NCBI GenBank assembly: GCA_025210155.1
Contig: JAOASE010000011.1
Coordinates: 12,498 to 76,497, forward strand
Source of the DNA: Alphaproteobacteria bacterium
GTDB lineage: Bacteria; Pseudomonadota; Alphaproteobacteria; Rs-D84; CASDRH01
Reading direction: 5' to 3'
Length of the DNA stretch: 64,000 bases
The position numbers and the translations under genes were made by a program. A model generated the notes under the pieces. That model was given only the letters and a program-made list of their open reading frames with translations, was not told the origin of the DNA and did not search any database. Shown piece by piece: positions 1 to 21,538 of the stretch. Within the stretch, counting starts at the first letter, position 1; each line of letters opens with the position of its first letter.

Positions 1-1500
1 TATGAAGAAAATGGTGATATAAATTTTTATTTAACATTGTTTGCCGATAAAAAAAATAGAAATCGTATGAATTATATAAGAAAAGAAATTAGGGCTGGAT
101 TTGATGCTAATATTTCATTAGATTTAGATGTTAGAGAAAGAATATATTCAACATATTTAAAACCATTAAGAGATGCAGAAGAAGAATTATCTTCAGGAAG
201 ATATTCTAGACTATCTCATATTTTAAATAATTTTTTAAAGGATGATTCAAAATCTACCTTAAATGAGGATATTAAAAAATTCAATAATACTATTGAAGAA
301 TCACAAAAATCTGAAAAATATTTAGAAATTATAAGATCTCATTTAGAAAATCTTATTTTTGAGAAAGAAGAAAATTTAACATCTAAAGTTTCTTTATCCC
401 AAGGTAGAGAAGAAATTTTATATAAGGGATTATTGGAAAAGTTAAATTTAGAATTTTCTAGTATGGATAAACAAGGTTTAGGTTATCAAAATGCTTTGTA
501 TATAGCTGCAGAATTGCTTTTATTAAATCAAGAAGAAGATATTTCTTCATTTTTAATTATTGAAGAACCTGAGGCTCATTTACATCCTCAGCTTCAAATG
601 AAATTTCTATCATATATAATGAAAATGTTAAATTCTGAATTTAAAAATAAAATTCAAATATTTATAACTACACATTCTCCTAATATAGCATCTAAAGTAA
701 ATCCTGGAAAAATTATTTTATCAACTCATAAAAATAATAAAATAGAAATGTATTCGTTAAGAAAAGAAGAAACTAAACTAAATGAAGAAGATTATATTTA
801 TTTGCAAAAATTTCTAGATATTACTAAATCTAATATGTTTTTTGCTAAAGGTATTTTAATGGTTGAAGGACCTAGTGAGGAAATACTGATTCCGTCAATA
901 GCTAAGGCTATAGGTTATAATTTAGAAGACTATGGCGTTGCAATTGTTAATGTTAACGGAGTTGGATTTTCTAGATTTTCAGATATTTTTATTAGATCAA
1001 ATGAAGATAGTGAAAAGATAAAAATACCTATATCTGTAGTAACGGATTTAGATTTACATAGATATTTTTGTGATGAAGATTCCAATTTAACTTCAGTAAG
1101 AGCTAAAAAGAAGCATGATGGAACTTATAAAACTTATGATTTGAAAGAGTATAGAGCAGAAAGGGAAAAATCTGAAGGAAATGTTAAAAATTTTATTTCA
1201 GCTTATAGATCTTTAGAAATTGATATATTTCACTCTTCTTTGAAGGATGAATTTTTAAAAATAGTAGAAGATTTCGATTATTCTTCTCATGATACAATGA
1301 AAGAAAGTTATAAAAATATAAAAAATAAAACAGATATTGCATATTTCTTATCAAAACAATTAGAGTCTAAAATAGATGCTTGTTTAAAATGTAAAGAATG
1401 TGATATTTCAGCTTTAAATTCTTGTATGTTGTCTGGTTTACCTAAATATATTACGGAGGCTATAAAATATTCTTGTAGAAAAGATTTAAATGAAGAGTAA
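1..1500 (+). CDS. gajA: OLD-family ABC-ATPase/TOPRIM nuclease, GajA-like. The 5' end is cut by the window edge.
   Basis: Frame 1 is open from nt 1, so the TTG at 37 is not the true start. Motifs seen: Walker B/D-loop FLIIEEPEAHLHPQLQ, H-loop ITTHSP, TOPRIM Glu in MVEGPSEE, and DxD in VVTDLD. An overlapping UvrD-like helicase follows. Confidence 0.75.
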   Translation, partial: YEENGDINFYLTLFADKKNRNRMNYIRKEIRAGFDANISLDLDVRERIYSTYLKPLRDAEEELSSGRYSRLSHILNNFLKDDSKSTLNEDIKKFNNTIEESQKSEKYLEIIRSHLENLIFEKEENLTSKVSLSQGREEILYKGLLEKLNLEFSSMDKQGLGYQNALYIAAELLLLNQEEDISSFLIIEEPEAHLHPQLQMKFLSYIMKMLNSEFKNKIQIFITTHSPNIASKVNPGKIILSTHKNNKIEMYSLRKEETKLNEEDYIYLQKFLDITKSNMFFAKGILMVEGPSEEILIPSIAKAIGYNLEDYGVAIVNVNGVGFSRFSDIFIRSNEDSEKIKIPISVVTDLDLHRYFCDEDSNLTSVRAKKKHDGTYKTYDLKEYRAEREKSEGNVKNFISAYRSLEIDIFHSSLKDEFLKIVEDFDYSSHDTMKESYKNIKNKTDIAYFLSKQLESKIDACLKCKECDISALNSCMLSGLPKYITEAIKYSCRKDLNEE

Positions 1501-3496
1501 TATAATGAAAGATATTTTAGAGATTAATGAAGAACAAATTATGGGCTATTTAAGTAGATTAAATCTAGTAGCTGATGAAAAACAAATAGAATTTATAAAA
1601 AATCTTGATACATTGGATATACATGCGGTTCCTGGAGCTGGTAAAACAACTATGCTTGGAATAAAAATAGCATGCCTTTTAGATAATTGGAAAAAATTAC
1701 CTAACCAAAATCATGGTATGTGTATTCTCTCCCATACAAATACAGCAAAAGATGAAATATTAAAAATATTAAAAAAATTAGATCATATAGAGAAAATTAA
1801 AAATTTTCCTCATTTTGTTGGAACTATACAAGAATTTGTAAATAAATTTGGAGGAATACCATATATTAAATCTCAACATTGGAAGTTATCAAGAATTGTT
1901 GAAGAATCTAATTTAGAACTATTGAATAAAAATGTAATTAAATATAAAAATTTTGATATAAATGCTTTTTTTAAAGAAGTACATAACAAAAAATCTAAAA
2001 AGAAATTAAATAAAAATATATATCCAATATCATATTTTTTAGAAACATTTAATAGAAAGGGGAAAATAAAAGAGTCTGATTTTTGTTATACATTTAATAA
2101 TGGAAAATTAACTCTTTTAAAATTTGAGGAAATATTTTCTCATATAGATGATTTGTATAATTATAAAAATGAATGCTGTAAAAGAGGTTTATTTTATTAT
2201 AAAGATTTTTATGCTTTCTTTAATGAAATTATTTATAATCATCCTAATTTAGTAAGAGCTATATCCTTAAGATTTCCAATTTGTTTTATTGATGAATATC
2301 AAGATAATACTAAAACTCAAGATGAATTATTAGAAAAACTATTTTCCAAACATTCTATATTTCAACGAATTGGGGATCCAAATCAATCAATATATGATAT
2401 TGAAAATGATAATGAAGAAAATTCTTTTAATCAAAATTCTCGTCATTATTTAGCTGGAGGGCTTCTTCCAAATTTAGACATGTTATCTTCTTATCGTTTT
2501 AAAGGTTCAAATATAGAAAATTTACTTCAAATATTTTCAAAAAATAATATTGAAAGCAATGCTGTAGGTGTAATGGGAAAAGATACTGTTATTAAAATAA
2601 TACCTATTAATATATCCTATGAAAAGCAAAACGATAGAGCGGATAACTATGGAAATGAATTAATAGATATTAAAAATAAATATATTAAAATAATTAAAGA
2701 AACCTTTTCAGATAAAGTTCAAGATTTTAATTTTGATAAAGATGGTCAAATAAAATATTTTTCTATTGGAGCATCAGGTAAAGATAAAGATAAAATTCAT
2801 ATACAAAAATATTTGGATACTTATGATAAAAAGAAATCAGAAAAAAATTTTCGTCCTAAGTATTGGATAGATTGTTTTTATTTAATTGAGAAAAAAATAA
2901 AAGAAAAAAATGATTTCAAAGAATATTATGATCTTATAATAGATACGTTAGCTAAAAATTCTTTGTTGGAGAATATTAAAACAACATCTCAATTAAAGAA
3001 TTTTTTAAAATCAGAAGATAAATTGTTTAAATTTAATAAAATTTTATTTGAATTAATTAGTCTTGAAAAAAGTGAAAAATTATGGAAAGAAAAATTAAAT
3101 ATAATTAAAGATTTTATTAATATAGATATTAATAAAGAGTATTTTAAATTTAAAGATTCAGATATTGATGATAATGATCATATAAATAATATTTATGAAG
3201 AAGATAATATTAAAATTAAGTTTGATACAATTCATGGAATTAAAGGACAAACTCATAATGCTACATTAGTTTTAACGACTGAAAATGATGGATTTGATAT
3301 AGAGAAAATTATTGAAAAAAGAAATTATAAAAATGATGATAAAAAGTTTGGGAAAAATAATTTTAAAAGAATAAAAAATTGGTATGTAGCGGCTTCTCGT
3401 CCTAAATATTTATTGTGTTTAGCAATACCTAAATCAGTTATAGAAAATAAAAACTTTCCAGAAAATTGGAAAAATTTTATATATGAGGAAAATTAA
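1490..3496 (+). CDS. gajB: UvrD/PcrA-like SF1 helicase, GajB-like
   Basis: Motifs seen: Walker A AVPGAGKTT, motif II CFIDEYQD, and late motif IHGIKGQTHNATLV. ATG 1490 overlaps the gajA TAA (1498-1500). An alternative ATG lies at 1505. Confidence 0.75.
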   Translation: MKSNIMKDILEINEEQIMGYLSRLNLVADEKQIEFIKNLDTLDIHAVPGAGKTTMLGIKIACLLDNWKKLPNQNHGMCILSHTNTAKDEILKILKKLDHIEKIKNFPHFVGTIQEFVNKFGGIPYIKSQHWKLSRIVEESNLELLNKNVIKYKNFDINAFFKEVHNKKSKKKLNKNIYPISYFLETFNRKGKIKESDFCYTFNNGKLTLLKFEEIFSHIDDLYNYKNECCKRGLFYYKDFYAFFNEIIYNHPNLVRAISLRFPICFIDEYQDNTKTQDELLEKLFSKHSIFQRIGDPNQSIYDIENDNEENSFNQNSRHYLAGGLLPNLDMLSSYRFKGSNIENLLQIFSKNNIESNAVGVMGKDTVIKIIPINISYEKQNDRADNYGNELIDIKNKYIKIIKETFSDKVQDFNFDKDGQIKYFSIGASGKDKDKIHIQKYLDTYDKKKSEKNFRPKYWIDCFYLIEKKIKEKNDFKEYYDLIIDTLAKNSLLENIKTTSQLKNFLKSEDKLFKFNKILFELISLEKSEKLWKEKLNIIKDFINIDINKEYFKFKDSDIDDNDHINNIYEEDNIKIKFDTIHGIKGQTHNATLVLTTENDGFDIEKIIEKRNYKNDDKKFGKNNFKRIKNWYVAASRPKYLLCLAIPKSVIENKNFPENWKNFIYEEN

Positions 3497-3497
3497 T

Positions 3498-3938: not shown

Positions 3939-3939
3939 C

Positions 3940-6753: not shown

Positions 6754-6754
6754 C

Positions 6755-9008: not shown

Positions 9009-10154
9009 TTATATATTAAAACAACTCACTGTATTTAATATATCATCTTTAATATCACTATTACTCAAATGAGCATATTTCAAAGTCATAGAAATAGTCT
9101 TATGACCTAATGCCTTTTGAACTTTAGATAAAGGAATATCATTCTTAACTAAATAAGTAGCAAAGGTATGTCTTAAATCATGCATTCTAAAACCACTAAT
9201 ACCAGCGTCATCCATAAGTATTCCCCAAGACCTTTTAGGATCTGTGATATATCCATTATACCATCTATTATAAAATAGATACTTACAAGGCTTTTTACAA
9301 GAAGCCTGATATTCTCTTATCAATTCCATAATTTCATTTGATATAGGAACTGTTATACCTTCTCCATTCTTAGTATCTTCAATAAATATATTACCCTTTT
9401 CAAAGTCAATATTTTCATTTAATATACTTAATATATTAGTCTTTCTTAAACCTGTATTTAAAGCTATTAAAGTAAATAACTTAATATAATGTCCATTATA
9501 CTTCTCACTATTTAAAACTCTTTTTAAAGATGCTAACTCTGCATCACTTAAATATCTTGTTATTCCCTTAACTGGATATTTAGATATCCCTTTAACATAA
9601 TTTTCGCTCATCAAATTATTCTCTATCAAAACATTAAATACCTTACTTAATAAAGAAATTATATGATTAAAAACACTCTTAGTCTTTCTAACATTATCCA
9701 AAACTCTTAATACTAAATCCTTATCAATTTTATCCGCCTTCTTCTTTCCCATAAAAGGTCTTACATATGCATTATAAAGTTGCTTGTCATGTTCACAACT
9801 TTTCTTATTAGGTTTTGCATGTTTCTCATAATAAAAATTAAATAAATCATCAAATCTCATTACAACCTTATTACCCAAATCATTTCTTTTATATTTTCCA
9901 TTTAATATATCTGCTAAAATCTTAGCAGAATCATCTTTAGCCTGACTTATAGAGATATAAGGGTAATGCCCTATGTCTTTTCTATAATCAATTCCTTTAA
10001 ATCTTTTATCTACAAAGAATAATACATCTCTCTTTCCAATTCTAACATAAAGACTAGAAGCATTAGAACATGAGTAAGTCACATTCTTTCCACTTTCTTT
10101 AACTTTATTAATTACCTTTTCTAAATTACTTTTATTCAACACAATTGAAGCCAT
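9009..10154 (-). CDS. int: Tyrosine recombinase, P4-like integrase
   Basis: C-terminal catalytic signatures HDLRHTFATYL and LGHKTISMTLKYAH are present. ATG 10154 (MASIVL) follows AAAGGAG. The track start at 10187 is less likely. Confidence 0.85.
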   Translation of the reverse strand: MASIVLNKSNLEKVINKVKESGKNVTYSCSNASSLYVRIGKRDVLFFVDKRFKGIDYRKDIGHYPYISISQAKDDSAKILADILNGKYKRNDLGNKVVMRFDDLFNFYYEKHAKPNKKSCEHDKQLYNAYVRPFMGKKKADKIDKDLVLRVLDNVRKTKSVFNHIISLLSKVFNVLIENNLMSENYVKGISKYPVKGITRYLSDAELASLKRVLNSEKYNGHYIKLFTLIALNTGLRKTNILSILNENIDFEKGNIFIEDTKNGEGITVPISNEIMELIREYQASCKKPCKYLFYNRWYNGYITDPKRSWGILMDDAGISGFRMHDLRHTFATYLVKNDIPLSKVQKALGHKTISMTLKYAHLSNSDIKDDILNTVSCFNI

Positions 10155-10459
10155 TTCTAATTCTCCTTTAATACTTAAATTCATCACATATGCGACATTA
10201 AAAGTATTTATAAAAAATTAGTTTTAGTTCGTAATCTCACCACATAAAAGGCATATAATAAAGAAGTCATTACATAAGTAATAACTTTTAAGAAACTTTT
10301 AAGAATTATTGTTATATTTATATAGATTTATATATACTCATATATACTTTAGATAAAAATACAGAAAACAAAACAATCTTAAAAACACAATAAAATCAAA
10401 GATTTACAAAAGTTCAAGGTTAGAGACTAACTCTCATCAATATTTTCTTTTAATCAATC

Positions 10460-10655: not shown

Positions 10656-10714
10656 AAGAAAATTAACAATATATTCCTAAAGATGCTAAAAATATGCTAT
10701 ACTCCTGAACCTTC

Positions 10715-11194: not shown

Positions 11195-11301
11195 ATTATT
11201 TCCCCTTCTATTAAATTAAGAATTAATTACTATCCTTACTTTTAATTTTAAAACTTAGGCTTGGTGATTGAATTAATATCAACCACCAAGTTACTAAGAG
11301 A

Positions 11302-12045
11302 TTATTTTCCTCCTTTGATACTTTGCCAAATTTCTTTAAAAGAAAGAAATTTAACACTTTCATCCATAAAAAATTCAAATTTAAAACTGTTGATGTCTTT
11401 TAAAGATTTGGGATTTTTAGATTTAATATTTTCTAAATTATCTTCTGACATTGAAAAACTAACAATTTCAACAGGTAAATTGTTAATCCCTCCTTTTCCT
11501 AATGTATGCAATACTGGTAAACCTTTCCTATAAGCGGTCAACCTAACTATACTTTCCAATAATGTTGTTATAGAAACAACTCCATTCATTACACACACCG
11601 TGATTAATCCAACAAGTATCCTTGAAAAGGATGTTAATCGATCCGCTTTTGAAGAAATACAAAATCTAGTACTCTCCATTTCCCTTTTTTGAGGAATATG
11701 CTTTATTGACTTTATTATCTTATTAAAAGATGAAATCTCGTTAATCATATACCTATGCTTTAATAGCCTTATATAACCAACAGCTTCATTACCTTCAAAT
11801 AAACCTAAATGAATTATATCATCCTGAGAATCAAATTCATCTACCTCTATCTCAAAGTTAGAAAATTTGTTTTTTTCTACCCAGCTCAACTCTTCAATAT
11901 AAATTTTATATCTCAAGCTTAACATTTCTTTTAAAACTTCTTCTTTTTCAGTCAACTCACATTCGCAAACTAATTTTTGTAAAAAATTTTCAACATCCTT
12001 AGATTTTGTTGCAATTACCTTAAATAATACTTCCTTCTCGTTCAT
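11302..12045 (-). CDS. luxI: LuxI-family acyl-homoserine-lactone synthase
   Basis: Family signature residues are in order: RYKIYIEELSW, EIEVDEFD (ExDxxD), GYIRLL, ESTRFCIS. A LuxR gene is adjacent. Confidence 0.75.
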   Translation of the reverse strand: MNEKEVLFKVIATKSKDVENFLQKLVCECELTEKEEVLKEMLSLRYKIYIEELSWVEKNKFSNFEIEVDEFDSQDDIIHLGLFEGNEAVGYIRLLKHRYMINEISSFNKIIKSIKHIPQKREMESTRFCISSKADRLTSFSRILVGLITVCVMNGVVSITTLLESIVRLTAYRKGLPVLHTLGKGGINNLPVEIVSFSMSEDNLENIKSKNPKSLKDINSFKFEFFMDESVKFLSFKEIWQSIKGGK

Positions 12046-12103
12046 AATTTAAAAAATTTAACTTAGTTATAAAATAAGAATATATTATCCTTTTTTAAAA
12101 AGT

Positions 12104-12123
12104 AACTGACACTTCTTACAGGT
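12104..12123 (-). promoter_or_regulatory. lux-box-like imperfect palindrome upstream of luxI
   Basis: The minus strand reads ACCTGTAAGAAGTGTCAGTT, against the canonical ACCTGTAGGATCGTACAGGT. It sits 16 nt upstream of a TAATAT -10 candidate. Confidence 0.5.
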
Positions 12124-12137
12124 ATAATTGAAATTTA

Positions 12138-12854
12138 TTATAGAATATTCTCCAATAAAGCCTTAGCAACTGCATGAGTATTTGAATAAACTCCAAGCTT
12201 AGACTTAACATTATTCATATGAAAGGAAACTGTTCTTTCTTTAATATCTAAAATTTTTGATATTTCCCAATAAGTTTTTCCAATAGAAATCCACTTTAAG
12301 CACTCTTTTTCTCTCTGAGTTAATTTAACCTTAGATATTGAAGTCTTAAAATTTATAAAGTTTGAAGCTATTTGATGAAAATATATTGACATAATCTGAA
12401 GATCATAAAGAACATCAAAAGAAACTTTTCCCCACTCTTCTTCAGACAAATAAGAATAAATGCTTATCAACCCTTTTCTTTTTTTATCAGAAATAACTGG
12501 TATAGACATACCTGTTAAAGATATACCAAACTTAGAAGAAATATCAAAGAATTCTCTATCCTCTTTAGTCTTAACTGTCTTTTCCCATAAGAATGGCTCC
12601 CATTCTTTTACTCCCATTTTAACAACAGGATCTGTTGAGAATAAATTCTTTCCCAAGTAATATTCAATCCACTCTTTAGGATAATTTGACTTATAAATTG
12701 GTTGAAAATCTGATGTATCAGAATCATCAAAATTTAGATATGCGACATAACATCTTCCTATATATTTATCAAGATACTGAAAAAATAATTTAGACATACT
12801 ATCTATGTCATTTAAATCTTTTAACTCTTCTACAAAGTTTTTAACGATTATCAT
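12138..12854 (-). CDS. luxR: LuxR-family autoinducer-binding transcriptional regulator
   Basis: The N-terminal domain carries W..YY...DP...PFLW. The C-terminal HTH reads LTQREKECLKWISIGKTYWEISKILDIKERTVSFHMNNVKSKL. Confidence 0.85.
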   Translation of the reverse strand: MIIVKNFVEELKDLNDIDSMSKLFFQYLDKYIGRCYVAYLNFDDSDTSDFQPIYKSNYPKEWIEYYLGKNLFSTDPVVKMGVKEWEPFLWEKTVKTKEDREFFDISSKFGISLTGMSIPVISDKKRKGLISIYSYLSEEEWGKVSFDVLYDLQIMSIYFHQIASNFINFKTSISKVKLTQREKECLKWISIGKTYWEISKILDIKERTVSFHMNNVKSKLGVYSNTHAVAKALLENIL

Positions 12855-13234: not shown

Positions 13235-13292
13235 AAATTTTATTATCAATTCACTTAACTATAGAAACTTCCCTTTAAAACTTCCAATAAAT
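13235..13292. repeat. 58-bp direct repeat, copy 2
   Basis: See 10598..10655. This copy overlaps the 3' end of an unlisted 45-aa minus-strand ORF (13255..13392). Confidence 0.85.
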
Positions 13293-13482
13293 TATAATTT
13301 TCATCAATCTTATCATAAATTTCTTGAAGATTTTCATAATCTGCTTTTATAAAAACATCTTCCTCAAACAAAATATTTCTATCTACATTCATTACACTTC
13401 TATTTGATATGTCTAGTAAAAACCACTATGAATATTTTCAAAAACTTAAAACTTATTTGATTTATTAATTTTTTCCACAACA

Positions 13483-16400
13483 TTATCCAACTATATTCAT
13501 ACCAATAAGCATACTTTGTTTTACAACATTATCTATTGCTAATTTTTCCATATTAGGTGGATAACCAAACTCTTTCAAAAGCTTCTTAACTTCCACCCTT
13601 AATCTAGCTTGAACATCACTTCTTTCTAAGAAATTAAAGTTAACCCTTCTCTTACATCTAAATACAAGAGCTTTTGTTAATTCCTTAAGCTTATTATCAC
13701 CCATAACTTCAACTGCAGACTTATTATCTGCTAGTGCTGTATAAAACTGTATTTCTTCGTCTGTTAAACCCAGTTCTTTCTTTTTTTCATCAGATAAAGC
13801 AATATGCTTACTCAAATTAATAAGCTCTTCTATCATCTGAGTAGAATCTATTTGATTATTATGATATCTAGAAACAAGCTCCTTCAACATCTCACCAAAA
13901 TTTCTAGCTTCAATGACACTATGTCTAGCTCTTTCTTTTACATCATCACTAATAAGTTTCTTCAGCATCTCTAAAGCTAAGTTTTTATTATTAAACTTCT
14001 TTATCTCATTTAAAAAGTCTTCTGAAAAGATATCTATCTGATTTTTGTTAATACTAGCCAAATCAAGAAGATCAAATATCTTAACCCCCTCAACTGCTTG
14101 AGAAGCAAGATTTCCTATCTTCGTGTTAATATCCTCAAGCTTCAGCTTTCTTTCGTTACAAATATTGGTATTTTTCAAAATCAACTCTTTAACTGCACAG
14201 AAAAATACTAACTCATACCTAATACTTTCAGCTTTATCAGTAGTAGCACACAAACTATAAGACTTTTGAAAATCAGTAGTCCATTTAACAAACTGCTTAC
14301 TCTTTTCCTTATCATCCGAACCAACAATAAAATTAAACAAGTCCTTTTTCAACTTAAAAAGTATCTTGCTATCATTGTTCTTATAAGCCCTTAACAACTC
14401 ATCCTTATAATCAAATCCAAACAATAAATCAGAAATATTAGAATACTTAGCCATCATAGTATCAACAGCCTTCTCTCTAATATTTTCACCTACAACTCCT
14501 TTATCTCTAGGAGAATATATAGCCAATGCATCTTTAAGATTTCCAAGAATACCAATATAATCTACAATCAAGCCATCTGGTTTTTCTTTATAAACCCTAT
14601 TAGCCCTAGCAATAGCCTGAATAAGATTATGTTCTTTTATAAGCTTATCAAAATACATTGTATTAATTGGAGGAGCATCAAATCCTGTCAACCACATATC
14701 ACAAACTATGATAAAGTCTAATTCATCATTCTCATCTTCAAGTCTCTTAGCAATCACCTCTTTATCTGCAGAAGATGTTTTATATTTCAGCAAATCTTCA
14801 CTATCAGAAGCCGATGAAGAATAAACCATCTTTATTTTACCCTTATCAACATCATCACTATGCCATTCTGGATTTTGAGAAACTAACATTTCATATAGTT
14901 TAACAGCAACATTTCTAGTAGAACAAACAATCATCGCCTTAGAAAACGGCAAAACCTCTTTTCTTAATCCAAAATGCTTACTAATGTCCTTCGCTAACAA
15001 CTTCAATCTTTCAGGACTTCCTAAAATAGCTTCCAACTTAGCATTCTTACTTTTTAAACTCTCACTATAACTTAAATCAGTAATGCCTTCTATCTCATCA
15101 AATAACTTATTTATTTCAGATATCTTATCATCATTCAACTTCACCTGAGCTAAACGAGCCTCATATCTAATTGGAACCGTAGCTCCATCAATTACAGACT
15201 GAGCCATATCATAAACATCATTATCATCACCAAAAATAGCTCTAGTATCATTATTCCCTTTCTCTATTGGAGTTCCTGTAAACCCAATAAATGTAGCATT
15301 AGGAAAAGCATCTCTTAAATATCTTGCAGAACCATCATCTATACCATTATGAGATCTATGAGCCTCATCAACCATAACAATAATATTATCTCTTTCTGAA
15401 AGTGTTTTAAACACCAACTCTGATCTACCCTTCTTATCAATACCAAACTTTTGCAATGTAGAAAAATAAACACCACCTGCTTTAATACCCTCAAGCTTAG
15501 TCTTCAACTCACCTGAACTTTGAATATTAACAGGCTTAGAACCTAAAATCATCTCTCCAGAACTAAATGTCTTAAACAATTGGGAATCCAAAGCAACTCT
15601 ATCAGTAACAACAAGTATCGTAGGATTTTCCAATTTCAAATCCTTCTCAATCATCCCAGCTAAAAACATCATAGAAAAAGACTTCCCTGAACCTGTAGAA
15701 TGCCAAACCAAACCACCTCGTTTATCACCATCTACAGCCTTTTTAATAGCTTCTAACGAACTATTAACACATCTCACCTGATGATACCCTGCGCAGATTT
15801 TAACATCCTTACCTTTAGAATTTATAAACGTCACAAAATTCTTAATATAATGTAACAATTTCTTCTTATCAAATAAATCCCTAATCAATCCTTCAATTTC
15901 AAATTCAAGTTTATCATCATCTTCACTTCTCCATGGATTAAATCTATCATAACCCGCAGACAAAGAACCTACCCTACTATGAAATCCATCTGAAATAATA
16001 TTAAACTGGTTAAAATAAAAAGCTTGAGGAAACTCCCTCTTATAAGTTTCCAACTGATTAAAAGCATTCTTCAAAGTAGCATTCTTATCAGCTGGATTTT
16101 TAAACTCAATCATAGAAATAGGCAAACCATTTAAATAAATCATAACATCAGGTCTTCTATGCTTATTATGCTCTTTTAAAATTAACTGATTAGAAACTAC
16201 AAATGAATTATTCTCAACATTTTCAAAATCCACTAACCTAACAGTCAAAGTTCTATCTTTATGATTTATCTTAACCCCACCAGTTAATAACTGGAAAATC
16301 CTCTTATTCTCTTGAACAAGATTAGTATGCTTACTTCTTATAACCTCATTAATAGCTTCTTCAATAACTTCACTAGACAAATCAGAATTTATTTTAAAAA

Positions 16401-16587
16401 CAACATCTCTAAAAATAGATAGATAATATGCAATATCAAAATCACTTCTCAAACAACTTCCATTTTCATCTAAAGGATTAATCTCTTCTCCTGATAAATA
16501 TTGGTATCCCTTATCTTGAAAAATACCAATAGCATAATCCTCTACCATCTGCTCATTAAACGGATTTTTAAAATTATCTTTTTGCAT
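13483..16587 (-). CDS. hsdR: Type I restriction enzyme R subunit
   Basis: Motifs seen: Walker A HSTGSGKS, the DEAH box VMVDEAHRS, and helicase motif QAIARANR. The protein is 1034 aa. Confidence 0.9.
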   Translation of the reverse strand: MQKDNFKNPFNEQMVEDYAIGIFQDKGYQYLSGEEINPLDENGSCLRSDFDIAYYLSIFRDVVFKINSDLSSEVIEEAINEVIRSKHTNLVQENKRIFQLLTGGVKINHKDRTLTVRLVDFENVENNSFVVSNQLILKEHNKHRRPDVMIYLNGLPISMIEFKNPADKNATLKNAFNQLETYKREFPQAFYFNQFNIISDGFHSRVGSLSAGYDRFNPWRSEDDDKLEFEIEGLIRDLFDKKKLLHYIKNFVTFINSKGKDVKICAGYHQVRCVNSSLEAIKKAVDGDKRGGLVWHSTGSGKSFSMMFLAGMIEKDLKLENPTILVVTDRVALDSQLFKTFSSGEMILGSKPVNIQSSGELKTKLEGIKAGGVYFSTLQKFGIDKKGRSELVFKTLSERDNIIVMVDEAHRSHNGIDDGSARYLRDAFPNATFIGFTGTPIEKGNNDTRAIFGDDNDVYDMAQSVIDGATVPIRYEARLAQVKLNDDKISEINKLFDEIEGITDLSYSESLKSKNAKLEAILGSPERLKLLAKDISKHFGLRKEVLPFSKAMIVCSTRNVAVKLYEMLVSQNPEWHSDDVDKGKIKMVYSSSASDSEDLLKYKTSSADKEVIAKRLEDENDELDFIIVCDMWLTGFDAPPINTMYFDKLIKEHNLIQAIARANRVYKEKPDGLIVDYIGILGNLKDALAIYSPRDKGVVGENIREKAVDTMMAKYSNISDLLFGFDYKDELLRAYKNNDSKILFKLKKDLFNFIVGSDDKEKSKQFVKWTTDFQKSYSLCATTDKAESIRYELVFFCAVKELILKNTNICNERKLKLEDINTKIGNLASQAVEGVKIFDLLDLASINKNQIDIFSEDFLNEIKKFNNKNLALEMLKKLISDDVKERARHSVIEARNFGEMLKELVSRYHNNQIDSTQMIEELINLSKHIALSDEKKKELGLTDEEIQFYTALADNKSAVEVMGDNKLKELTKALVFRCKRRVNFNFLERSDVQARLRVEVKKLLKEFGYPPNMEKLAIDNVVKQSMLIGMNIVG

Positions 16588-17047
16588 TTTTACTTTCCTT
16601 CTTCCTAAGTATTAGTTTTATCATCTTTAACTCTTTTTTTATATTTTTATTAAAGTCAGATGAAAGAGACAGTATAGCATTTTTATCAAAATTATCATTA
16701 AGAACATAATCATTTATAGCATTTAAATGAAATTGAAAATCCTGATAAACACCTACAACACTTGGAACTTTCACATCATATAAAACCCTAACATCTTCTA
16801 TCAAGAAAGATGGTTTAATAACATCTAATAAATTATTAATATTTCCATCTCTTTCTATAACATCATGGGATGTATTCATAAACATAACCATATTCTCCAA
16901 ATCAAAAGATATTTGTTCTAATAGTTTGATTTTATTTATTTTCTCTTTCCTATAATTTATAAACTCTCTTAAAATTTCATTTAAAAAACCTGTTAGAACA
17001 GCAAATAAAGCTCCAAAAAACATAGTCCAAATAGTTGCCCAATCCAT
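16574..17047 (-). CDS. Hypothetical N-terminally anchored membrane protein (157 aa) embedded in the hsd operon
   Basis: N-terminal TM helix WATIWTMFFGALFAVLTGFL. The stop overlaps the hsdR start by 14 nt. Confidence 0.55.
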   Translation of the reverse strand: MDWATIWTMFFGALFAVLTGFLNEILREFINYRKEKINKIKLLEQISFDLENMVMFMNTSHDVIERDGNINNLLDVIKPSFLIEDVRVLYDVKVPSVVGVYQDFQFHLNAINDYVLNDNFDKNAILSLSSDFNKNIKKELKMIKLILRKKESKNAKR

Positions 17048-17156
17048 TATTTAAAATCCTTTCAAAAATTTCCTAAACTCTTTAGTATTATCTTTAATCT
17101 TCATTAAAATTTTCTCATCCTTTAGACTTCTATTTTTCAACTCAAGATAACCATTA

Positions 17157-17378
17157 TTAAGTTAAAAGATATTTATTTCCTCTAATCCAAAACCAAACAA
17201 CATTAGCTGTAACACCTCTATACATCCTCACTACAGGATCTCTTTCAGAAAACTTCAAAACTAATTCTTTTATATCATCAATAACAAAATCTTCTAAAAC
17301 TCCATGATCATAATTTCGAAATTTAACACCTTCTATATAATCTTCTATAGCAAATTTATTATCTAAAACCTTAACCAT
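17157..17378 (-). CDS. Hypothetical small protein (73 aa) embedded in the hsd operon
   Basis: The ATG lies 2 nt after the hsdS TAG. No motif was recognised. Confidence 0.45.
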   Translation of the reverse strand: MVKVLDNKFAIEDYIEGVKFRNYDHGVLEDFVIDDIKELVLKFSERDPVVRMYRGVTANVVWFWIRGNKYLLT

Positions 17379-17380
17379 CT

Positions 17381-18619
17381 CTACATTCCTTTTAGTTTTA
17401 CTTTACCACTTATTAGTTTTGGTAAAAGTGTATCTCTAGTTTCTTTAAGAGTTGCTATTTGCTTAATATTAGCAGAAATCTTTTCAAACATAGGTTCAAC
17501 CTTTTCATTAAACCTTTTCATACTCCCCTCATCAGGTATTAAAATTTTAGAATTTTTTATTTCAAAAGTTGATAAATTAACTTGAACACCACTATTTGAG
17601 CGCCCCCTCAAATTTTCTATAAATTCTGACGTATTAGTTAATATACTTAAAAAATAATTATAACCATTTTTAGGTCTAATAATTCCAACACGTTGATTTA
17701 CTAAATATTTTTTATCTTCAAACATAATACCTGTATGTCCTAGTAAGTTCATTGAAGATTTCATATCTGTCATACACATTAATATATCATATTTTTCAGC
17801 AAAATTACTCGAAATTTTATTAGAAACATCTCCAGCAAAATAAGAAACAAATTTTTCTAAAGTTAAACCACCACCCTTTAAAATATTTCCCATTTTTAAA
17901 ACTGGTATTCCAACTTTATCCTTAGATAGTTCTTTACTAGAAAATGGATAACCATTTTTAAAATCTGACACATCATCCAACACTCCTTCTTTCCAATCTG
18001 AATTTGGGTTAGTAATGAAGGTTTCAGTGAAGATAGTTTGAGCTAATTCTTCTAGAGTTTTATTTTGCTCTTGCAACAATTCAATCTTATCATCTAGCGA
18101 TGACAAAACCCCTGCAATCTCCCTCTGGATCTCCACATCCTCAGGGATAAAAGTAGAAAACTGTAATATACGAGAAGGACTAGTATGCTTCACTGTACTA
18201 CCTGTAGCTCCATTAGCAATATATCGCTGATAAAAAGAAGTTCTCATTAACCAATAAAGAAATTCTTTATCAATTTTTTCACAATTAAGATTTTCCACCA
18301 AACCAAGTCTTTGATTATGTAAATAAACAAACTCATTACTATTAGGAACTTTTAAAGGATACCCCAATGTATCAGCCTTTTTACTTAGATCTGTCATCGA
18401 AACAAGTAAATCACCTTCTTTTAAAATATAAGACTTAGGAAAATCATCAGAAGAATAATACTTAAATTTTTTAGAATTAAACCCTCCACCTATAGAAAAA
18501 TTACCAGGAGTTAAAAGTATATTTTTAAACTTTTCTGAAGTAATAAAGTCTCCTTTAAAAGCATAACCATGCTTTATATCACAAACATCACCTAGTGTTG
18601 TCTCAATCCACTTAATCAT
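17381..18619 (-). CDS. hsdS: Type I R-M specificity subunit
   Basis: Two target-recognition halves are separated by the conserved helix LDDKIELLQEQNKTLEELAQTIF. The C-terminal helix reads LKETRDTLLPKLISGKV. Confidence 0.9.
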   Translation of the reverse strand: MIKWIETTLGDVCDIKHGYAFKGDFITSEKFKNILLTPGNFSIGGGFNSKKFKYYSSDDFPKSYILKEGDLLVSMTDLSKKADTLGYPLKVPNSNEFVYLHNQRLGLVENLNCEKIDKEFLYWLMRTSFYQRYIANGATGSTVKHTSPSRILQFSTFIPEDVEIQREIAGVLSSLDDKIELLQEQNKTLEELAQTIFTETFITNPNSDWKEGVLDDVSDFKNGYPFSSKELSKDKVGIPVLKMGNILKGGGLTLEKFVSYFAGDVSNKISSNFAEKYDILMCMTDMKSSMNLLGHTGIMFEDKKYLVNQRVGIIRPKNGYNYFLSILTNTSEFIENLRGRSNSGVQVNLSTFEIKNSKILIPDEGSMKRFNEKVEPMFEKISANIKQIATLKETRDTLLPKLISGKVKLKGM

Positions 18620-18795
18620 TATTTTTCCTCTTCAACTAAAAATGTATTTACAACACCTGATGTTCTTATAGTTCCCATCTTATAACCACACTTAGCACAC
18701 AACACTAATTCATTCTCTGTAGACCCCATTCCATCACCCCAAGAATCTTCTTTAACTAAATTTTTAGCACTACACTTTTTACAAACTTGTATCAT
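18619..18795 (-). CDS. Unlisted 58-aa zinc-ribbon protein (CKKC...CAKC) embedded in the hsd operon
   Basis: The minus strand reads MIQVCKKCSAKNLVKEDSWGDGMGSTENELVLCAKCGYKMGTIRTSGVVNTFLVEEEK. Its ATG overlaps the upstream TAA and its TAA overlaps the hsdS ATG (TAATG junctions at both ends). Confidence 0.55.
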   Translation of the reverse strand: MIQVCKKCSAKNLVKEDSWGDGMGSTENELVLCAKCGYKMGTIRTSGVVNTFLVEEEK

Positions 18796-19748
18796 TACTT
18801 GCTTCTCCCTTTAAATTTATTAAATAATACATAAAACAAATATATAAATAGTAAAATAACAAAAAGATAAACAAGTGGACTAATAGTAATTCCAAATTTA
18901 CTATATTTTTTATACTCTGTAATAAGTAACAAGTAAGTCAAGCTTTCAGCTATCGCTAATAAAATTAGAAGCATAAACAAAAATTTATAAATACCTCCTT
19001 TTTCTATTTGAAAAGATCCATACCTTTTTACAAAAGTATTTACATAGTTGATAAGTAAAATTGAAAAGATCAATATGAAAATATAAACACCTTTTCCAAA
19101 AAGATGAATTTCTACTATAAAAATATTTAAAAATTTCTTCCAAATAGAAGTATTTTTCTCTTCAAAACTTTTAACACAACTATCTATATTTTCAAAATAT
19201 TCTATATCAAAATTTTTAATAAGTCCCTTAACGGATATATCAAGTTCTTTTCCATCTAGTTTTTTATACAAAATAGATGTACAAAAATCCTTACCAGCCT
19301 TTAAATAAAAAGGTTCTAGCATCCAATTTTTTTTCTTTTTCCATACGATATTATCTCTTGTTAAATCATCTGGTTTTTTATTCTTAAAATAAACATCAGA
19401 ACAAGCTTCTACATTTATTATTCTATTATCTTTATCATAAAGAGTTATAGAGTTAATAAAATCATCTTTAGCTATATCTAAAGCAGAAATATTCCTTATA
19501 TAAATAATCTTTGAAGAAACATCTTTTACATTAAAAAATTTCTTATTTGATAACAACTTCAAAGAATCTGAAGATATAAAATCATCTAACTTATAACTAT
19601 AAGAACTACCAATAATCAATTTATTTGGCTTTATTTTTTCTTTAGGATAAAAACTTATAACCATTGTTAATACAGTCAATAATATACTTATAATTCCTAT
19701 ATGATTTTTTCTTAAATAATGGTAAATATTTGTTTTAAGATCTCTCAT
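18795..19748 (-). CDS. Hypothetical multi-pass membrane protein (317 aa) embedded in the hsd operon
   Basis: It has an N-terminal TM helix, a roughly 170-aa soluble beta-rich segment, and three to four C-terminal TM helices. The ATG lies 2 nt after the hsdM TAG. Confidence 0.6.
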   Translation of the reverse strand: MRDLKTNIYHYLRKNHIGIISILLTVLTMVISFYPKEKIKPNKLIIGSSYSYKLDDFISSDSLKLLSNKKFFNVKDVSSKIIYIRNISALDIAKDDFINSITLYDKDNRIINVEACSDVYFKNKKPDDLTRDNIVWKKKKNWMLEPFYLKAGKDFCTSILYKKLDGKELDISVKGLIKNFDIEYFENIDSCVKSFEEKNTSIWKKFLNIFIVEIHLFGKGVYIFILIFSILLINYVNTFVKRYGSFQIEKGGIYKFLFMLLILLAIAESLTYLLLITEYKKYSKFGITISPLVYLFVILLFIYLFYVLFNKFKGRSK

Positions 19749-19750
19749 AA

Positions 19751-21343
19751 CTACACCTCAACCTTACTCATTTGTTTTAAAATCTCTTCATTCAAATCAG
19801 TTTCTTTTTTAATCTGAACTTTCAACTCACTTAAAAGTCGTGGAAACTTCTCTTCAAAAGGTTCTGAGTCCTCTTCACTCTCAGCAATACCTACATATCT
19901 ACCTGGAGTCAAAACCCAATCATTCTTTTCAATTTCTTCTAAACTAGCAGACTTACAAAAACCAGCAATGTCTTTATAATCATCTTTAACCAAAACATGT
20001 CCTTTTACCCTTGTTGTTTTAGCATCATAAAAAAGACCTGAACCTGTAGACAATCCTGCACTAACAGATTTAGATTTCCACTTATCATAAGTAGTAGAAA
20101 TATTAGCTATATCCTCATCAGTAAATTCTTTATGAACTCTATCAGCCATAAACCCAATTTCTCTAGCATCTATAAACAAAGTCTTTTTCTTCTCTTCAGC
20201 ACTTCTACCTTTTCTCAAAATCCATAAACAAGCTGGAATTTGAGTAGAGAAAAACATCTGCCCAGGCAAAGCAACTATAGCTTCAACAACCCCATCTTTA
20301 ATCATATTCTTTCTAACTTCCAATTCACCATTAGTAGCCGTAGACATTGAACCATTTGCAAGAACTACACCTGCCACTCCATTGTGATTAAGGTGATGTA
20401 TCATATGTTGCAACCAAGCATAATTAGCATTTCCTTTAGGAGGTAAACCATAAGACCATCTAACATCATTCGCCAATATATCATGCCCCCACTCACTTTG
20501 ATTAAATGGTGGATTAGCCAAAATATAATCCGCTTTTAAAGTCTTATGTAAATCATTCCTAAGAGTGTCATCCGAACTCTCTCCAATATTTCCATTAATC
20601 CCTCTAATAGCCAAATTCATCAAACAAAGTCTTCTTGTAGACTCATTATACTCTTGACCATGTATCCAAATATCTTGAACTCTATGACCATGAGCAACAG
20701 TAAATTTCTCAGATTGAATAAACATCCCACCAGAACCACAACAAGGGTCATAAACCTTTCCCTTGTAAGGCTTAATAATTTCCACAAGTGTTTTAACTAT
20801 TGATTTGGGTGTATAAAACTCCCCACCTCTTTTACCTTCCGTAGAAGCAAAATTAGAAATAAAATATTCATAAACCCTTCCAAGCACATCTTTTTCTTCA
20901 TTCAAATCTCCAAAAGAAATATTATTGGTAAAAAGATCTATCAAACCACCCAAGTTATTTTTATTCAACGAGGCTCTATTATAATTTTTAGGAAGAACTC
21001 CTTTCAAATTAGAATTCTCTTTTTCTATAGCAATCATAGCATTGTCTATTATCTCACCAATGTCATCTGACTTAGCATATTTAGATATATAACTCCAACG
21101 AGCAATCTCAGGACAAAAGAAAATACCATCTGCTAAATATTCATCTCTATCTTCTTCTGAACCATAACCTTCTTCCACAAGAGTATTATACTTAATCTCA
21201 AATGAATCTGATATATATTTCAAAAATATAAGCCCTAAAACAACATACTTATACTCAGATGGATCAATAGCTCCTCTTAACTTATCAGCTCCCGCAAACA
21301 ATACTTTTTCAATAGATAAATCCGATGATGAATTCTTAGCCAT
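19751..21343 (-). CDS. hsdM: Type I R-M N6-adenine DNA methyltransferase subunit
   Basis: Motif I is YDPCCGSGGMF and motif IV is ILANPPFN. Confidence 0.9.
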   Translation of the reverse strand: MAKNSSSDLSIEKVLFAGADKLRGAIDPSEYKYVVLGLIFLKYISDSFEIKYNTLVEEGYGSEEDRDEYLADGIFFCPEIARWSYISKYAKSDDIGEIIDNAMIAIEKENSNLKGVLPKNYNRASLNKNNLGGLIDLFTNNISFGDLNEEKDVLGRVYEYFISNFASTEGKRGGEFYTPKSIVKTLVEIIKPYKGKVYDPCCGSGGMFIQSEKFTVAHGHRVQDIWIHGQEYNESTRRLCLMNLAIRGINGNIGESSDDTLRNDLHKTLKADYILANPPFNQSEWGHDILANDVRWSYGLPPKGNANYAWLQHMIHHLNHNGVAGVVLANGSMSTATNGELEVRKNMIKDGVVEAIVALPGQMFFSTQIPACLWILRKGRSAEEKKKTLFIDAREIGFMADRVHKEFTDEDIANISTTYDKWKSKSVSAGLSTGSGLFYDAKTTRVKGHVLVKDDYKDIAGFCKSASLEEIEKNDWVLTPGRYVGIAESEEDSEPFEEKFPRLLSELKVQIKKETDLNEEILKQMSKVEV

Positions 21344-21538
21344 AACAACACGTTCCTTTTCCTAATTTTCTTTGAAAAAAGTATACTCCTCAGCACTCAA
21401 ATAATCAAGAATTGATTTAAAAAAATTACATTAAATTAATATAAAAATTTAAACTAAGTTTTTATTCACAATAAATCGATCCAAAAACAAAAAAAGCGAC
21501 CCATAAAAGCCGCCTTTCTTTTCACAAAACAACTGAAT

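What the first reader, a model, noticed from the sequence alone, without database searches (positions are those of the whole stretch)
13483..21343. Type I R-M operon with four uncharacterised ORFs interleaved between hsdM, hsdS and hsdR
**Gene order (minus strand).**
1. hsdM.
2. A 317-aa protein with one TM helix, a soluble domain and three to four more TM helices.
3. A 58-aa zinc ribbon.
4. hsdS.
5. A 73-aa protein.
6. A 157-aa N-terminally anchored protein.
7. hsdR.

**Coupling.** The junctions are 2-nt gaps or TAATG overlaps, and the last ORF overlaps hsdR by 14 nt. The extra genes are therefore co-translated with the R-M subunits and are not later insertions with their own signals.

**Precedent.** Embedded guard genes are known in hsd loci, for example prrC in the E. 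coli prr locus and the rlo genes in Campylobacter hsd loci. I recognise none of those families here.

**Hypothesis.** Two membrane proteins plus a zinc ribbon could be a membrane-acting abortive-infection or exclusion module that monitors or backs up the R-M complex.
Basis: partly seen in the sequence, partly recalled or inferred. Interest (0 to 1): 0.8.

Follow-up and report, generated by a model that had tools for sequence, protein, structure and literature searches.

The report
Type I restriction operon carrying passenger genes
A complete Type I restriction-modification operon in a phage-defence island carries four extra unknown genes, two of them for membrane proteins, in the gaps between its own genes; this layout is known and common, so they are untested defence candidates, not a new kind of system.

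Summary
On the minus strand the order is hsdM, orf317, orf58, hsdS, orf73, orf157, hsdR. All four extra ORFs look like real genes, and five of six junctions are tight. The orf73/orf157 junction is a 109-nt spacer, not a tight join.

- The closest related hsd operon (HsdM 72%, HsdR 71% identical) has different, unrelated genes in the same two slots.
- 49 of 109 related operons carry embedded non-HsdS genes. These include Abi_2, Shedu, DUF4145, PIN and ABC-ATPase genes. 12 of the 109 carry membrane proteins.
- The extras are therefore exchangeable cargo that uses the hsd promoter.
- Only orf317 has detectable homologs: nine distant ones. It has an N-terminal TM helix, a beta-sandwich ectodomain with a conserved Cys pair, and three more TM helices. 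None of the nine homologs lies in an R-M operon.
- orf58 is a generic zinc ribbon. orf157 is a membrane-anchored helical bundle. orf73 has no match to anything.
- None of the four matches PADLOC, Pfam, NCBIfam or PHROGs significantly.
- The operon sits in a defence island with Gabija, a KAP NTPase and an integrase.

Best reading: these are independent embedded candidates, possibly acting in defence at the cell envelope. They are not dedicated guards of the R-M complex. This is a new member of a known kind, of moderate interest.

The parts
21380..21408 (-). Promoter-like site (TTGATT-17-TATACT) upstream of hsdM. It follows the terminator-like hairpin at 21520-21489 that ends the gldA unit.
   Evidence: consensus scan only, so weak evidence
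19751..21343 (-). hsdM, Type I methyltransferase subunit (530 aa)
   Evidence: Pfam N6_Mtase 2.5e-105 and HsdM_N 1e-24; PADLOC MTase_I 1.4e-194. DPCCGSGG and NPPF motifs in the translation.
18795..19748 (-). orf317: polytopic membrane protein. It has an N-terminal TM helix, a beta-sandwich ectodomain of about 145 aa with a conserved Cys116/Cys156 pair, and three C-terminal TM helices. It belongs to a sparse unnamed family.
   Evidence: TM segments; nine distant homologs; invariant D96, C116, W142, C156; AF2 model, ectodomain pLDDT 80-93; only generic beta-sandwich matches
18619..18795 (-). orf58: 58-aa zinc ribbon with two CxxC pairs. It overlaps orf317 and hsdS by 1 nt each (TAATG).
   Evidence: Only sub-threshold matches: TIGR02098 MJ0042-type 15.6 bits against a cut-off of 20.9; PHROG 6422 'Lar-like' E 0.0046; GltJ/AgmX zinc ribbon E 0.57.
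17381..18619 (-). hsdS, specificity subunit with two target-recognition domains (412 aa)
   Evidence: Pfam Methylase_S 2.4e-22 in two stretches; PADLOC Specificity_I 1.3e-74. The conserved N-terminal, central and C-terminal regions align with L002 HsdS.
17157..17378 (-). orf73: 73-aa soluble protein with no detectable relatives, starting 2 nt after the hsdS stop
   Evidence: no hit
17048..17156 (-). 109-nt spacer between orf73 and orf157. This is the one loose junction. It holds three mini-ORFs of 5, 4 and 17 codons. The last is in frame with orf157 and separated from its ATG only by TAA-ATA.
   Evidence: read directly from the sequence; no promoter-like or terminator-like site was reported there
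16574..17047 (-). orf157: protein anchored by an N-terminal TM helix, with a predicted cytoplasmic helical bundle. Its last 14 nt overlap the start of hsdR.
   Evidence: The single-sequence AF2 model is all-helical (pLDDT 65). Foldseek gave only generic four-helix bundles with E > 0.03.
13483..16587 (-). hsdR, restriction/translocase subunit (1034 aa)
   Evidence: Pfam HSDR_N 8.8e-40, SWI2_SNF2 4.7e-66, T1R_D3-like, T1RH-like_C 3.6e-82; PADLOC REase_I 1.8e-271
9009..10187 (-). Tyrosine integrase. It marks the variable region that holds the hsd operon. This is context, not part of the operon.
   Evidence: Pfam Phage_integrase 1.8e-32
37..3496 (+). Gabija defence system: GajA, probably cut by the window start (the hit begins near position 120 of the roughly 620-aa GajA profiles), and GajB. 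This is context and shows that the region is a defence island.
   Evidence: PADLOC GajA 8.8e-119 and GajB 2.3e-108; Pfam AAA_15/OLD-like TOPRIM and UvrD helicase

Best explanation
**Shown**
- This is a complete Type I R-M operon with intact motifs, laid out as a single co-directional unit.
- It lies at the edge of an integrase-marked defence island. The order is Gabija, KAP NTPase/PifA-like gene, integrase, LuxI/LuxR, hsd, then core genes.
- Its two intergenic slots (hsdM|hsdS and hsdS|hsdR) are filled almost completely by four real protein-coding genes that are specific to this lineage.
- In related hsd operons the same slots are empty or hold unrelated genes.

**Inferred**
- The four genes are passenger ('embedded') cargo. 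They use the hsd promoter and ribosome traffic for expression. They work independently of HsdM, HsdS and HsdR and are neither subunits nor dedicated guards.
- They probably form two small modules.
- Slot 1 holds orf317 and orf58. orf317 is an inner-membrane protein with both termini in the cytoplasm that displays a disulfide-stabilised beta-sandwich outside the cytoplasm. orf58 is a cytoplasmic zinc ribbon translationally coupled to it.
- Slot 2 holds orf73 and orf157. orf73 is small and soluble. orf157 is a membrane-anchored helical bundle.
- Most likely function, from the logic of embedding and the island context: phage defence at the envelope, either exclusion at the surface or membrane-acting abortive infection. 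This would complement DNA restriction. No data test this step.
For: **Real genes**
- ORF-length statistics and codon log-odds support all four.
- Independent gene callers called them on other assemblies.

**Cargo status**
- L002 has HsdM 72% and HsdR 71% identical, with homology running to the very ends of hsdM, hsdS and hsdR.
- Its slots hold an Abi_2 protein (224 aa), a 283-aa protein with one TM segment, and a 267-aa protein with two TM segments. None is similar to the window's ORFs.
- 49 of 109 related operons have embedded non-HsdS ORFs, and 12 of 109 have embedded TM proteins.
- The embedded inventory in relatives is rich in defence-associated families:
  - Abi_2, Shedu SduA_C, DUF4145 and PIN_12;
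  - AAA_15/AAA_21 ATPases and the YhcG PD-(D/E)xK nuclease;
  - hsdS shufflons with recombinases.

**Independence from R-M**
All nine orf317 homologs are stand-alone genes outside hsd operons. Two sit next to toxin-antitoxin pairs and one next to an integrase island carrying HinfI R-M and GmrSD.

**Envelope location of orf317**
- It has four TM segments.
- A Cys pair in the ectodomain is invariant across the family.
- Charge distribution in the GC-richer homologs fits the positive-inside rule.
- The beta-sandwich is modelled with confidence.

**Defence context**
Gabija, a KAP NTPase/PifA-like gene and an integrase lie in the same 21 kb.

**Literature**
- Type I R-M systems frequently hold embedded genes, 96.7% of them in the same orientation.
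- More than half of those genes have unknown function, and several were shown to be defences (bioRxiv 10.1101/2024.01.29.577857).
- TgvAB is an experimentally shown example that works independently of HsdR (PMC11411939).
Against: - No direct evidence shows any function.
- The orf317 family is not visibly enriched near defence genes. Its neighbours include EF-P, LysR, an EAL regulator and an amino-acid permease.
- orf58, orf73 and orf157 have no detectable relatives, so context statistics are impossible for them. Their orphan status is also provisional, because I could not run an exhaustive search for them.
- About 16 of roughly 94 embedded non-HsdS ORFs in relatives contain a TM segment. From general knowledge, that is no higher than the usual share of membrane proteins in a proteome.
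- Very tight coupling (1-nt and 14-nt overlaps) would also fit stoichiometric co-assembly with Hsd subunits.
- The nearest relative also has non-homologous TM proteins in both slots. This could hint at a functional need for membrane partners.
Confidence: 0.55

Rival explanations
1. The four proteins form one membrane-acting abortive-infection or exclusion module that is functionally wired to the R-M complex. It would sense inhibition of R-M, for example by Ocr or ArdA, or back the complex up. PrrC guards EcoprrI in this way.
For: - Genes are interleaved in both slots, with 1-nt and 14-nt overlaps onto hsdS and hsdR.
- The closest relative, L002, also has non-homologous TM proteins immediately upstream of hsdS and of hsdR. 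This could be analogous replacement.
- PrrC sets a precedent for a guard embedded in an hsd locus (Fig. 6C legend).
Against: - The only ORF with homologs, orf317, is never found in an hsd operon elsewhere (0 of 9). It has no conserved zinc-ribbon neighbour there.
- The two slots are separated by hsdS, and slot 2 has a loose 109-nt junction. This looks like two independent insertions, not one module.
- Most related operons (60 of 109) work with empty slots.
- There is no similarity to PrrC or any PADLOC family.
Confidence: 0.12
2. The genes are non-defence passengers. They would be envelope, stress or selfish stabilising genes that landed in permissive slots of a mobile operon and do not contribute to immunity. 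A small toxin/antitoxin-like pair is one example.
For: - orf317 homologs sit among ordinary genes such as EF-P, LysR/flavodoxin, an EAL regulator and a permease.
- Two sit beside TA modules.
- No defence-family match exists for any of the four.
- TM proteins are not enriched among embedded genes.
Against: [quoted passage not shown]
- Neighbouring embedded genes in relatives are largely defence-associated.
- The locus lies in a defence island.
Confidence: 0.22
3. The genes are accessory regulators or localisers of the R-M enzyme. orf58 would act like Lar in restriction alleviation, tuning restriction against modification. orf157 and/or orf317 would tether the enzyme to the inner membrane, where incoming DNA enters.
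For: - orf58 has a weak PHROG 6422 'Lar-like restriction alleviation' match (E 0.0046).
- orf58 is coupled to hsdS and orf157 to hsdR.
Against: - The Lar match covers only the generic zinc-ribbon core and is sub-threshold.
- Pfam reported no Lar family hit at E <= 0.1.
- Equally weak matches go to MJ0042-type and TFIIB ribbons.
- Related operons lack any counterpart.
Confidence: 0.07
4. Some of the small ORFs (orf58, orf73) are not expressed genes. They would be chance open frames or remnants of decayed cargo.
For: - Both are short and have no detected homologs.
- The nearby 109-nt spacer with mini-ORFs suggests some local decay.
Against: - Open-frame probabilities are 2e-3 and 5e-4.
- In-frame codon log-odds (0.35) equal those of the hsd genes, and all other frames are negative.
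- Start and stop codons fit exactly against the neighbouring genes, and Shine-Dalgarno-like sequences lie upstream.
- The four ORFs together fill 99.9% of slot 1.
Confidence: 0.04

Closest known systems
Genes embedded in Type I R-M systems ('guilt-by-embedding', Payne et al. 2024, bioRxiv 10.1101/2024.01.29.577857)
   Same: - Extra genes are nested between hsd genes on the same strand and co-regulated with them.
- Their function is unknown, and the locus lies in a defence-rich neighbourhood.
   Different: - None of the four ORFs matches any PADLOC v2 model. By the paper's account, PADLOC includes the PDC families.
- Here both slots are filled, with four ORFs that have few or no relatives. Two of them are membrane proteins, a class that paper does not mention (no occurrence of 'membrane').
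TgvAB in the Vibrio cholerae VPI-2 Type I R-M cluster (PMC11411939)
   Same: - It is a small gene set embedded inside an active Type I R-M operon.
- It was shown to be an independent defence that does not need HsdR.
   Different: TgvAB is a cytoplasmic GmrSD-like Type IV nuclease pair. The window's ORFs have no nuclease or NTPase domains, and two are membrane proteins.
PrrC anticodon nuclease in the E. coli prr (EcoprrI) locus
   Same: It is embedded between hsd genes. It is the classic case of a guard that depends on the R-M complex.
   Different: PrrC has an ABC-ATPase-like domain and a nuclease domain, and it is found almost exclusively embedded. Here no such domains are present, and the one traceable family (orf317) is found only outside R-M elsewhere.
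Closest relative operon L002 (JAFGXE010000049, a MAG labelled Alphaproteobacteria)
   Same: - It belongs to the same hsd family (HsdM 72%, HsdR 71% identical).
- It uses the same two slots, with similarly tight junctions.
- It has TM proteins directly upstream of hsdS and of hsdR.
   Different: - Its cargo is unrelated: Abi_2 (224 aa), a 283-aa protein and a 267-aa protein.
- A Fic/DOC gene lies downstream.
Membrane-anchored beta-sandwich proteins (DUF2207-, DUF4352- and DUF5067-like; CBM2 fold)
   Same: The orf317 ectodomain is modelled as a beta-sandwich next to TM helices. Foldseek finds CBM2 (TM-score about 0.5 on the target) and phage DUF4352/DUF5067-like proteins.
   Different: - There is no significant sequence match; the DUF2207_C hits are E 0.023 in 2 of 10 family members.
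- The similarity is generic to the fold and says nothing about function.

Membership tests
Type I restriction-modification system | HsdM with an N6-adenine methyltransferase domain and HsdM_N | tested here: met
   (2.5e-105 and 1e-24); motifs DPCCGSGG and NPPF
Type I restriction-modification system | HsdS with two target-recognition domains and conserved central and C-terminal helices | tested here: met
   (Methylase_S, two stretches); the conserved regions align with L002 HsdS
Type I restriction-modification system | HsdR with a PD-(D/E)xK nuclease, an SF2 motor and a C-terminal assembly domain | tested here: met
   GSGKS, DEAH and PD...EFK motifs read
Type I restriction-modification system | Sequence-specific methylation and ATP-dependent restriction activity | not testable with these tools
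   needs methylome sequencing and restriction assays
Defence-system-embedded genes (Payne et al. 2024) | Located between genes of one multi-gene defence system, on the same strand | tested here: met
Defence-system-embedded genes (Payne et al. 2024) | Not a mobility-associated or housekeeping protein | tested here: inconclusive
   no significant hit in Pfam, NCBIfam or PHROGs; mobileOG and eggNOG were not available
Defence-system-embedded genes (Payne et al. 2024) | Match to a published HEC or PDC candidate family | tested here: not met
   PADLOC-DB v2.0.0 gave no significant hit for orf317, orf58, orf73 or orf157; the only match listed was orf73 to ZorA at E 0.074
PrrC-type anticodon nuclease guard | ABC-ATPase-like N-domain plus a C-terminal anticodon nuclease domain | tested here: not met
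   no ATPase or nuclease domain, and no PADLOC or Pfam hit
Campylobacter rlo genes | Sequence similarity to RloA-RloH | not tested
   no reference sequences were available; the four ORFs have no Pfam domain of any kind
Lar restriction-alleviation protein | Significant match to the Lar family profile beyond the zinc-ribbon core | tested here: inconclusive
   PHROG 6422 E 0.0046 over residues 1-45 only; no Pfam Lar hit at E <= 0.1; comparable weak hits to unrelated ribbons
MJ0042-type zinc ribbon | Two CxxC knuckles and a score above the TIGR02098 cut-off | tested here: inconclusive
   the CxxC pairs are present; the score is 15.6 bits against a cut-off of 20.9
Holins and known membrane Abi or exclusion families | Profile match above the curated threshold | tested here: not met
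   the only holin-type match, TIGR01673 (phage holin), scores 15 bits against a cut-off of 34.75 for orf317; nothing in Pfam or PADLOC
Unnamed orf317 family (P0002-P0010) | Full-length similarity, the same 1 TM + ectodomain + 3 TM layout, and invariant D96, C116, W142, C156 | tested here: met
   phmmer E 1.5e-6 to 4.6e-4 against 1.84 billion representatives; alignment A1
Unnamed orf317 family (P0002-P0010) | Association with R-M operons | tested here: not met
   none of the nine homologs' loci has an hsd gene next to the homolog

The most novel reading that the evidence does not exclude
The tight interleaving is functional. The membrane proteins orf317 and orf157, with orf58 and orf73 as cytoplasmic adaptors, would position or gate the Type I enzyme at the inner membrane. 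Alternatively they would trigger membrane-level abortive infection when restriction fails. The non-homologous TM proteins in the same slots of the nearest relative (L002) and in about 11% of related operons would then be analogous solutions. That would amount to an unrecognised class of membrane partners of Type I R-M systems.
Probability: 0.1. Interest if true: 0.75.

Novelty: new member of a known kind. Interest (0 to 1): 0.36.

Why it matters
If any of the four genes protects against phage, it would add new protein families that act at the membrane to the known defence repertoire. These families are absent from PADLOC, Pfam and PHROGs.

The comparison with relatives also shows that the hsdM|hsdS and hsdS|hsdR junctions of this hsd family are precise cargo slots that turn over. 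This makes them a cheap place to look for new defence genes.

If the genes turn out to be inert passengers, that sets a limit on how far 'guilt by embedding' can be trusted.

Tried and rejected
**1. Concatenated query.** I searched orf58+orf73+orf157 as one sequence in the search for homologous proteins. It returned nothing, not even the window's own proteins, which are in the collection. The search is uninformative and cost one of three allowed. The orphan status of these three ORFs is therefore provisional. It rests on three things:
- each is a singleton at the 90% cluster level;
- the family libraries are negative;
- local, phage, plasmid and viral searches are negative for orf157 (plasmid and phage tblastn plus viral contigs) and for orf58 and orf73 (viral contigs only).

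**2. Wider search for the orf317 family.** A profile search with alignment A1 in the 5.8-billion collection recovered only two known members. Scans of metagenome and viral contigs and tblastn against phages and plasmids found no relatives.

**3. Is orf58 a remnant of a DUF4145 protein?** DUF4145 proteins occupy the same slot in L041 and L062 and have an N-terminal zinc ribbon. BLASTP found no alignment, so I rejected this.

**4. Is orf58 a Lar homolog?** The evidence is only a sub-threshold match to the ribbon core. I did not adopt it.

**5. Are orf157 and the N-anchored proteins of L002 and L071 one family?** Only the TM region gives BLAST hits (E 3.3), so this is not supported.

**6. L002's 341-aa gene downstream of hsdR.** I guessed RhuM-like from memory. 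Pfam gave no hit, so I dropped the guess. The adjacent Fic/DOC gene was confirmed.

**7. Purifying selection (dN/dS).** The only other copies are 99.98-100% identical, so no test was possible.

**8. Source organism.** It was not identified, and its genome was not found in the representative genome collection by this scan; the best hsdM hit there is 72% identical.

Full report
**1. Observation**

- hsdM 21343-19751
- orf317 19748-18795
- orf58 18795-18619
- hsdS 18619-17381
- orf73 17378-17157
- orf157 17047-16574
- hsdR 16587-13483

The three hsd genes are unambiguous:
- HsdM matches N6_Mtase at 2.5e-105.
- HsdS matches Methylase_S in two stretches.
- HsdR matches HSDR_N, SWI2_SNF2, T1R_D3-like and T1RH-like_C, and PADLOC REase_I at 1.8e-271.

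Their catalytic motifs can be read in the translations, so the R-M system looks intact.

The junctions are a 2-nt gap, two TAATG 1-nt overlaps, another 2-nt gap, and a 14-nt overlap onto hsdR. A 109-nt spacer (17048-17156) separates orf73 from orf157.

**2. Are the four ORFs real genes?**

- The stop-codon probability is 0.10 per codon in this 23-25% GC stretch.
- At that rate, open frames of 58, 73, 157 and 317 codons have probabilities of 2e-3, 5e-4, 7e-8 and 4e-15.
- Shuffles of slot 1 never exceeded 118 codons.
- Each ORF has positive codon log-odds only in its own frame (0.18-0.35 per codon). The hsd genes score 0.31-0.39.
- Each has a purine-rich ribosome-binding-like sequence upstream.
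- The ORFs fill 99.9% of slot 1 and 86% of slot 2.
- Other pipelines called all four as genes on two further assemblies that are 99.98-100% identical.
- I consider all four real. There is slight residual doubt for the two short ones.

**3. What the four proteins are**

No significant match exists in Pfam, PADLOC v2, NCBIfam or PHROGs. By Payne et al.'s account, PADLOC includes the embedded-candidate PDC families.

*orf317*
- It has one N-terminal and three C-terminal TM segments.
- An exhaustive phmmer search of 1.84 billion representatives found nine distant homologs. They are full length and 21-26% identical, with E-values from 1.5e-6 to 4.6e-4.
- The homologs share the same layout and four invariant residues: D96, C116, W142 and C156.
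- An AF2 model built with this alignment has a mean pLDDT of 71. It places a confident beta-sandwich (residues about 43-185, pLDDT 80-93) between TM1 and a three-helix membrane bundle.
- Foldseek finds only generic beta-sandwiches. In PDB these are the CBM2 cellulose-binding domain and a GH20 enzyme, at E about 1e-3.
- Against BFVD, Foldseek finds uncharacterised phage proteins, with a best E of 1.8e-6. Weaker hits include DUF4352- and DUF5067-like proteins.
- The invariant Cys pair and the positive-inside charge pattern of the GC-richer homologs indicate that the sandwich faces outward, with both termini in the cytoplasm.

*orf58*
- It is a two-knuckle zinc ribbon with only sub-threshold matches.
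- TIGR02098 (MJ0042-type) scores 15.6 bits against a cut-off of 20.9.
- PHROG 6422, 'Lar-like', matches at E 0.0046.
- The GltJ/AgmX ribbon matches at E 0.57.

*orf157*
- It is an N-terminal TM helix followed by helices. The single-sequence model has pLDDT 65.
- Only generic four-helix-bundle matches were found.

*orf73*
- It matches nothing.

**4. Comparative context of the operon**

- Scans with HsdM returned 160 related loci.
- None encodes a relative of any of the four ORFs.
- The closest is L002, with HsdM 72% and HsdR 71% identical. It is homologous to the window right up to the ends of hsdM, hsdS and hsdR.
- L002's slots hold different genes: an Abi_2/PD-T4-5-like protein, a 283-aa protein with one TM segment, and a 267-aa protein with two TM segments. 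A Fic/DOC gene lies downstream.
- Among 109 related operons with hsdM and hsdR co-directional, 49 carry at least one embedded non-HsdS ORF, and 12 carry an embedded TM protein.
- Defence-associated families among the embedded genes of relatives:
  - Abi_2, Shedu SduA_C, DUF4145 and PIN_12;
  - AAA_15/AAA_21 ATPases and YhcG/DUF1016 nucleases;
  - recombinase-driven hsdS shufflons.
- Other embedded families found there: KilA-N, DUF3644, DUF1828/1829, DUF6978, DUF6650 and Bflower.
- The two junctions are therefore exchangeable cargo slots.
- About 16 of roughly 94 embedded non-HsdS ORFs contain a TM segment. From general knowledge, this is not above the usual share of membrane proteins in a proteome.

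**5. Context of the orf317 family**

All nine homologs lie outside R-M operons and are stand-alone genes.
- Two are adjacent to toxin-antitoxin pairs: HicAB and an Unstab_antitox gene followed by a 100-aa ORF with no Pfam hit, inferred to be its toxin.
- One borders an integrase island carrying HinfI R-M and GmrSD.
- The others lie next to LysR/flavodoxin, EF-P, or an EAL regulator and a permease.
- Three sit on contigs too short to say anything.
- No hsd gene and no zinc-ribbon partner accompanies any of them.

This argues that orf317 works on its own and does not need orf58 or the Hsd proteins. The sample is small.

**6. Wider window context**

The operon sits in a defence island:
- Gabija GajA/GajB at 37-3496, followed by two coupled unknown ORFs;
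- a KAP NTPase/PifA-like gene and a 533-aa unknown at 5827-8356, where GC is 16-18%;
- a tyrosine integrase at 9009-10187;
- a LuxI/LuxR pair at 11302-12854;
- the hsd operon;
- then core genes: a glycerol-dehydrogenase-type Fe-ADH and a uracil-DNA glycosylase.

**7. Literature**

- Embedding of extra genes in Type I R-M, BREX, DISARM and Hma systems is documented as frequent. 96.7% of embedded genes share the system's orientation.
- More than half have unknown function, and several are experimentally confirmed defences (bioRxiv 10.1101/2024.01.29.577857).
- TgvAB in Vibrio cholerae is a tested example embedded in a Type I cluster that acts without HsdR (PMC11411939).
- PrrC is the example of a guard that is almost always embedded.

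**8. Interpretation**

- *Best supported (confidence about 0.55).* The four ORFs are lineage-specific cargo in two slots of an intact Type I operon. They are expressed from its promoter and are functionally independent of it.
- By embedding and island context they are candidate defence genes. Their predicted locations suggest action at the envelope, by exclusion or membrane-level abortive infection.
- The cargo part is well supported. The defence part is inference only.
Non-defence passengers, about 0.22. R-M regulators or membrane tethers, about 0.07. Non-genes, about 0.04.

**9. Verdict**

- The arrangement is a known, common kind.
- The specific proteins are new, and three of them currently have no detected relatives.
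- The proposed coupling to R-M is unsupported and is partly contradicted for the one ORF that can be traced.
- Interest is moderate (0.36). These are good, cheap candidates for a phage-defence screen, but not a surprise to a specialist.

Noticed in passing
window 37-4665 (+): A Gabija system: GajA (probably cut by the window start, since the hit begins near position 120 of the GajA profiles) and GajB. Two overlapping ORFs of unknown function follow (3483-3938, 151 aa; 3925-4665, 246 aa). They look translationally coupled to gajB and match nothing in Pfam or PADLOC.
   Followed up: partly
window 5827-8356 (+): A KAP-family P-loop NTPase with a weak PifA-like N-terminus (308 aa). A 533-aa ORF with no family match follows directly. 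The stretch is extremely AT-rich (16-18% GC at 6-8 kb), which suggests another foreign defence-type cassette.
   Followed up: partly
window 9009-12854 (-): A tyrosine integrase (9009-10187), a 159-aa unknown ORF, and a LuxI-type autoinducer synthase with a LuxR regulator (11302-12854). They lie between the other defence genes and the hsd operon. The quorum-sensing pair may be island cargo.
   Followed up: no
window 17048-17156 (-): The 109-nt spacer between orf73 and orf157 holds a chain of mini-ORFs (MVILS, MRKF, and a 17-codon MKIKDNTKEFRKFLKGF). The last is in frame with orf157 and is separated from its ATG only by TAA-ATA. It could be a remnant of a longer orf157 N-terminus or of decayed cargo.
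   Followed up: no
window 13255-13392 (-): A 45-aa ORF 90 nt downstream of hsdR. Independent gene callers also called it on the two other assemblies (L176, L177). It has no family match.
   Followed up: no
L059 11557-15618: A related hsd operon from an uncultured bacterium carries six embedded ORFs across both slots. One is a Bflower-domain protein. Three are unrelated TM proteins of 184, 121 and 245 aa. This is the most similar 'membrane-rich' embedding found.
   Followed up: partly
L002 2348-10640: The closest hsd relative carries Abi_2 and two TM proteins embedded in its slots. Downstream of hsdR lie a 341-aa ORF with no Pfam hit and a Fic/DOC gene. The slot boundaries coincide exactly with the ends of the hsd genes in both operons.
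   Followed up: yes
window, whole: Strongly negative GC skew runs across nearly the whole window from about 8 kb onward, and almost all genes there lie on the minus strand. Overall GC is about 28%. The source organism was not identified.
   Followed up: no
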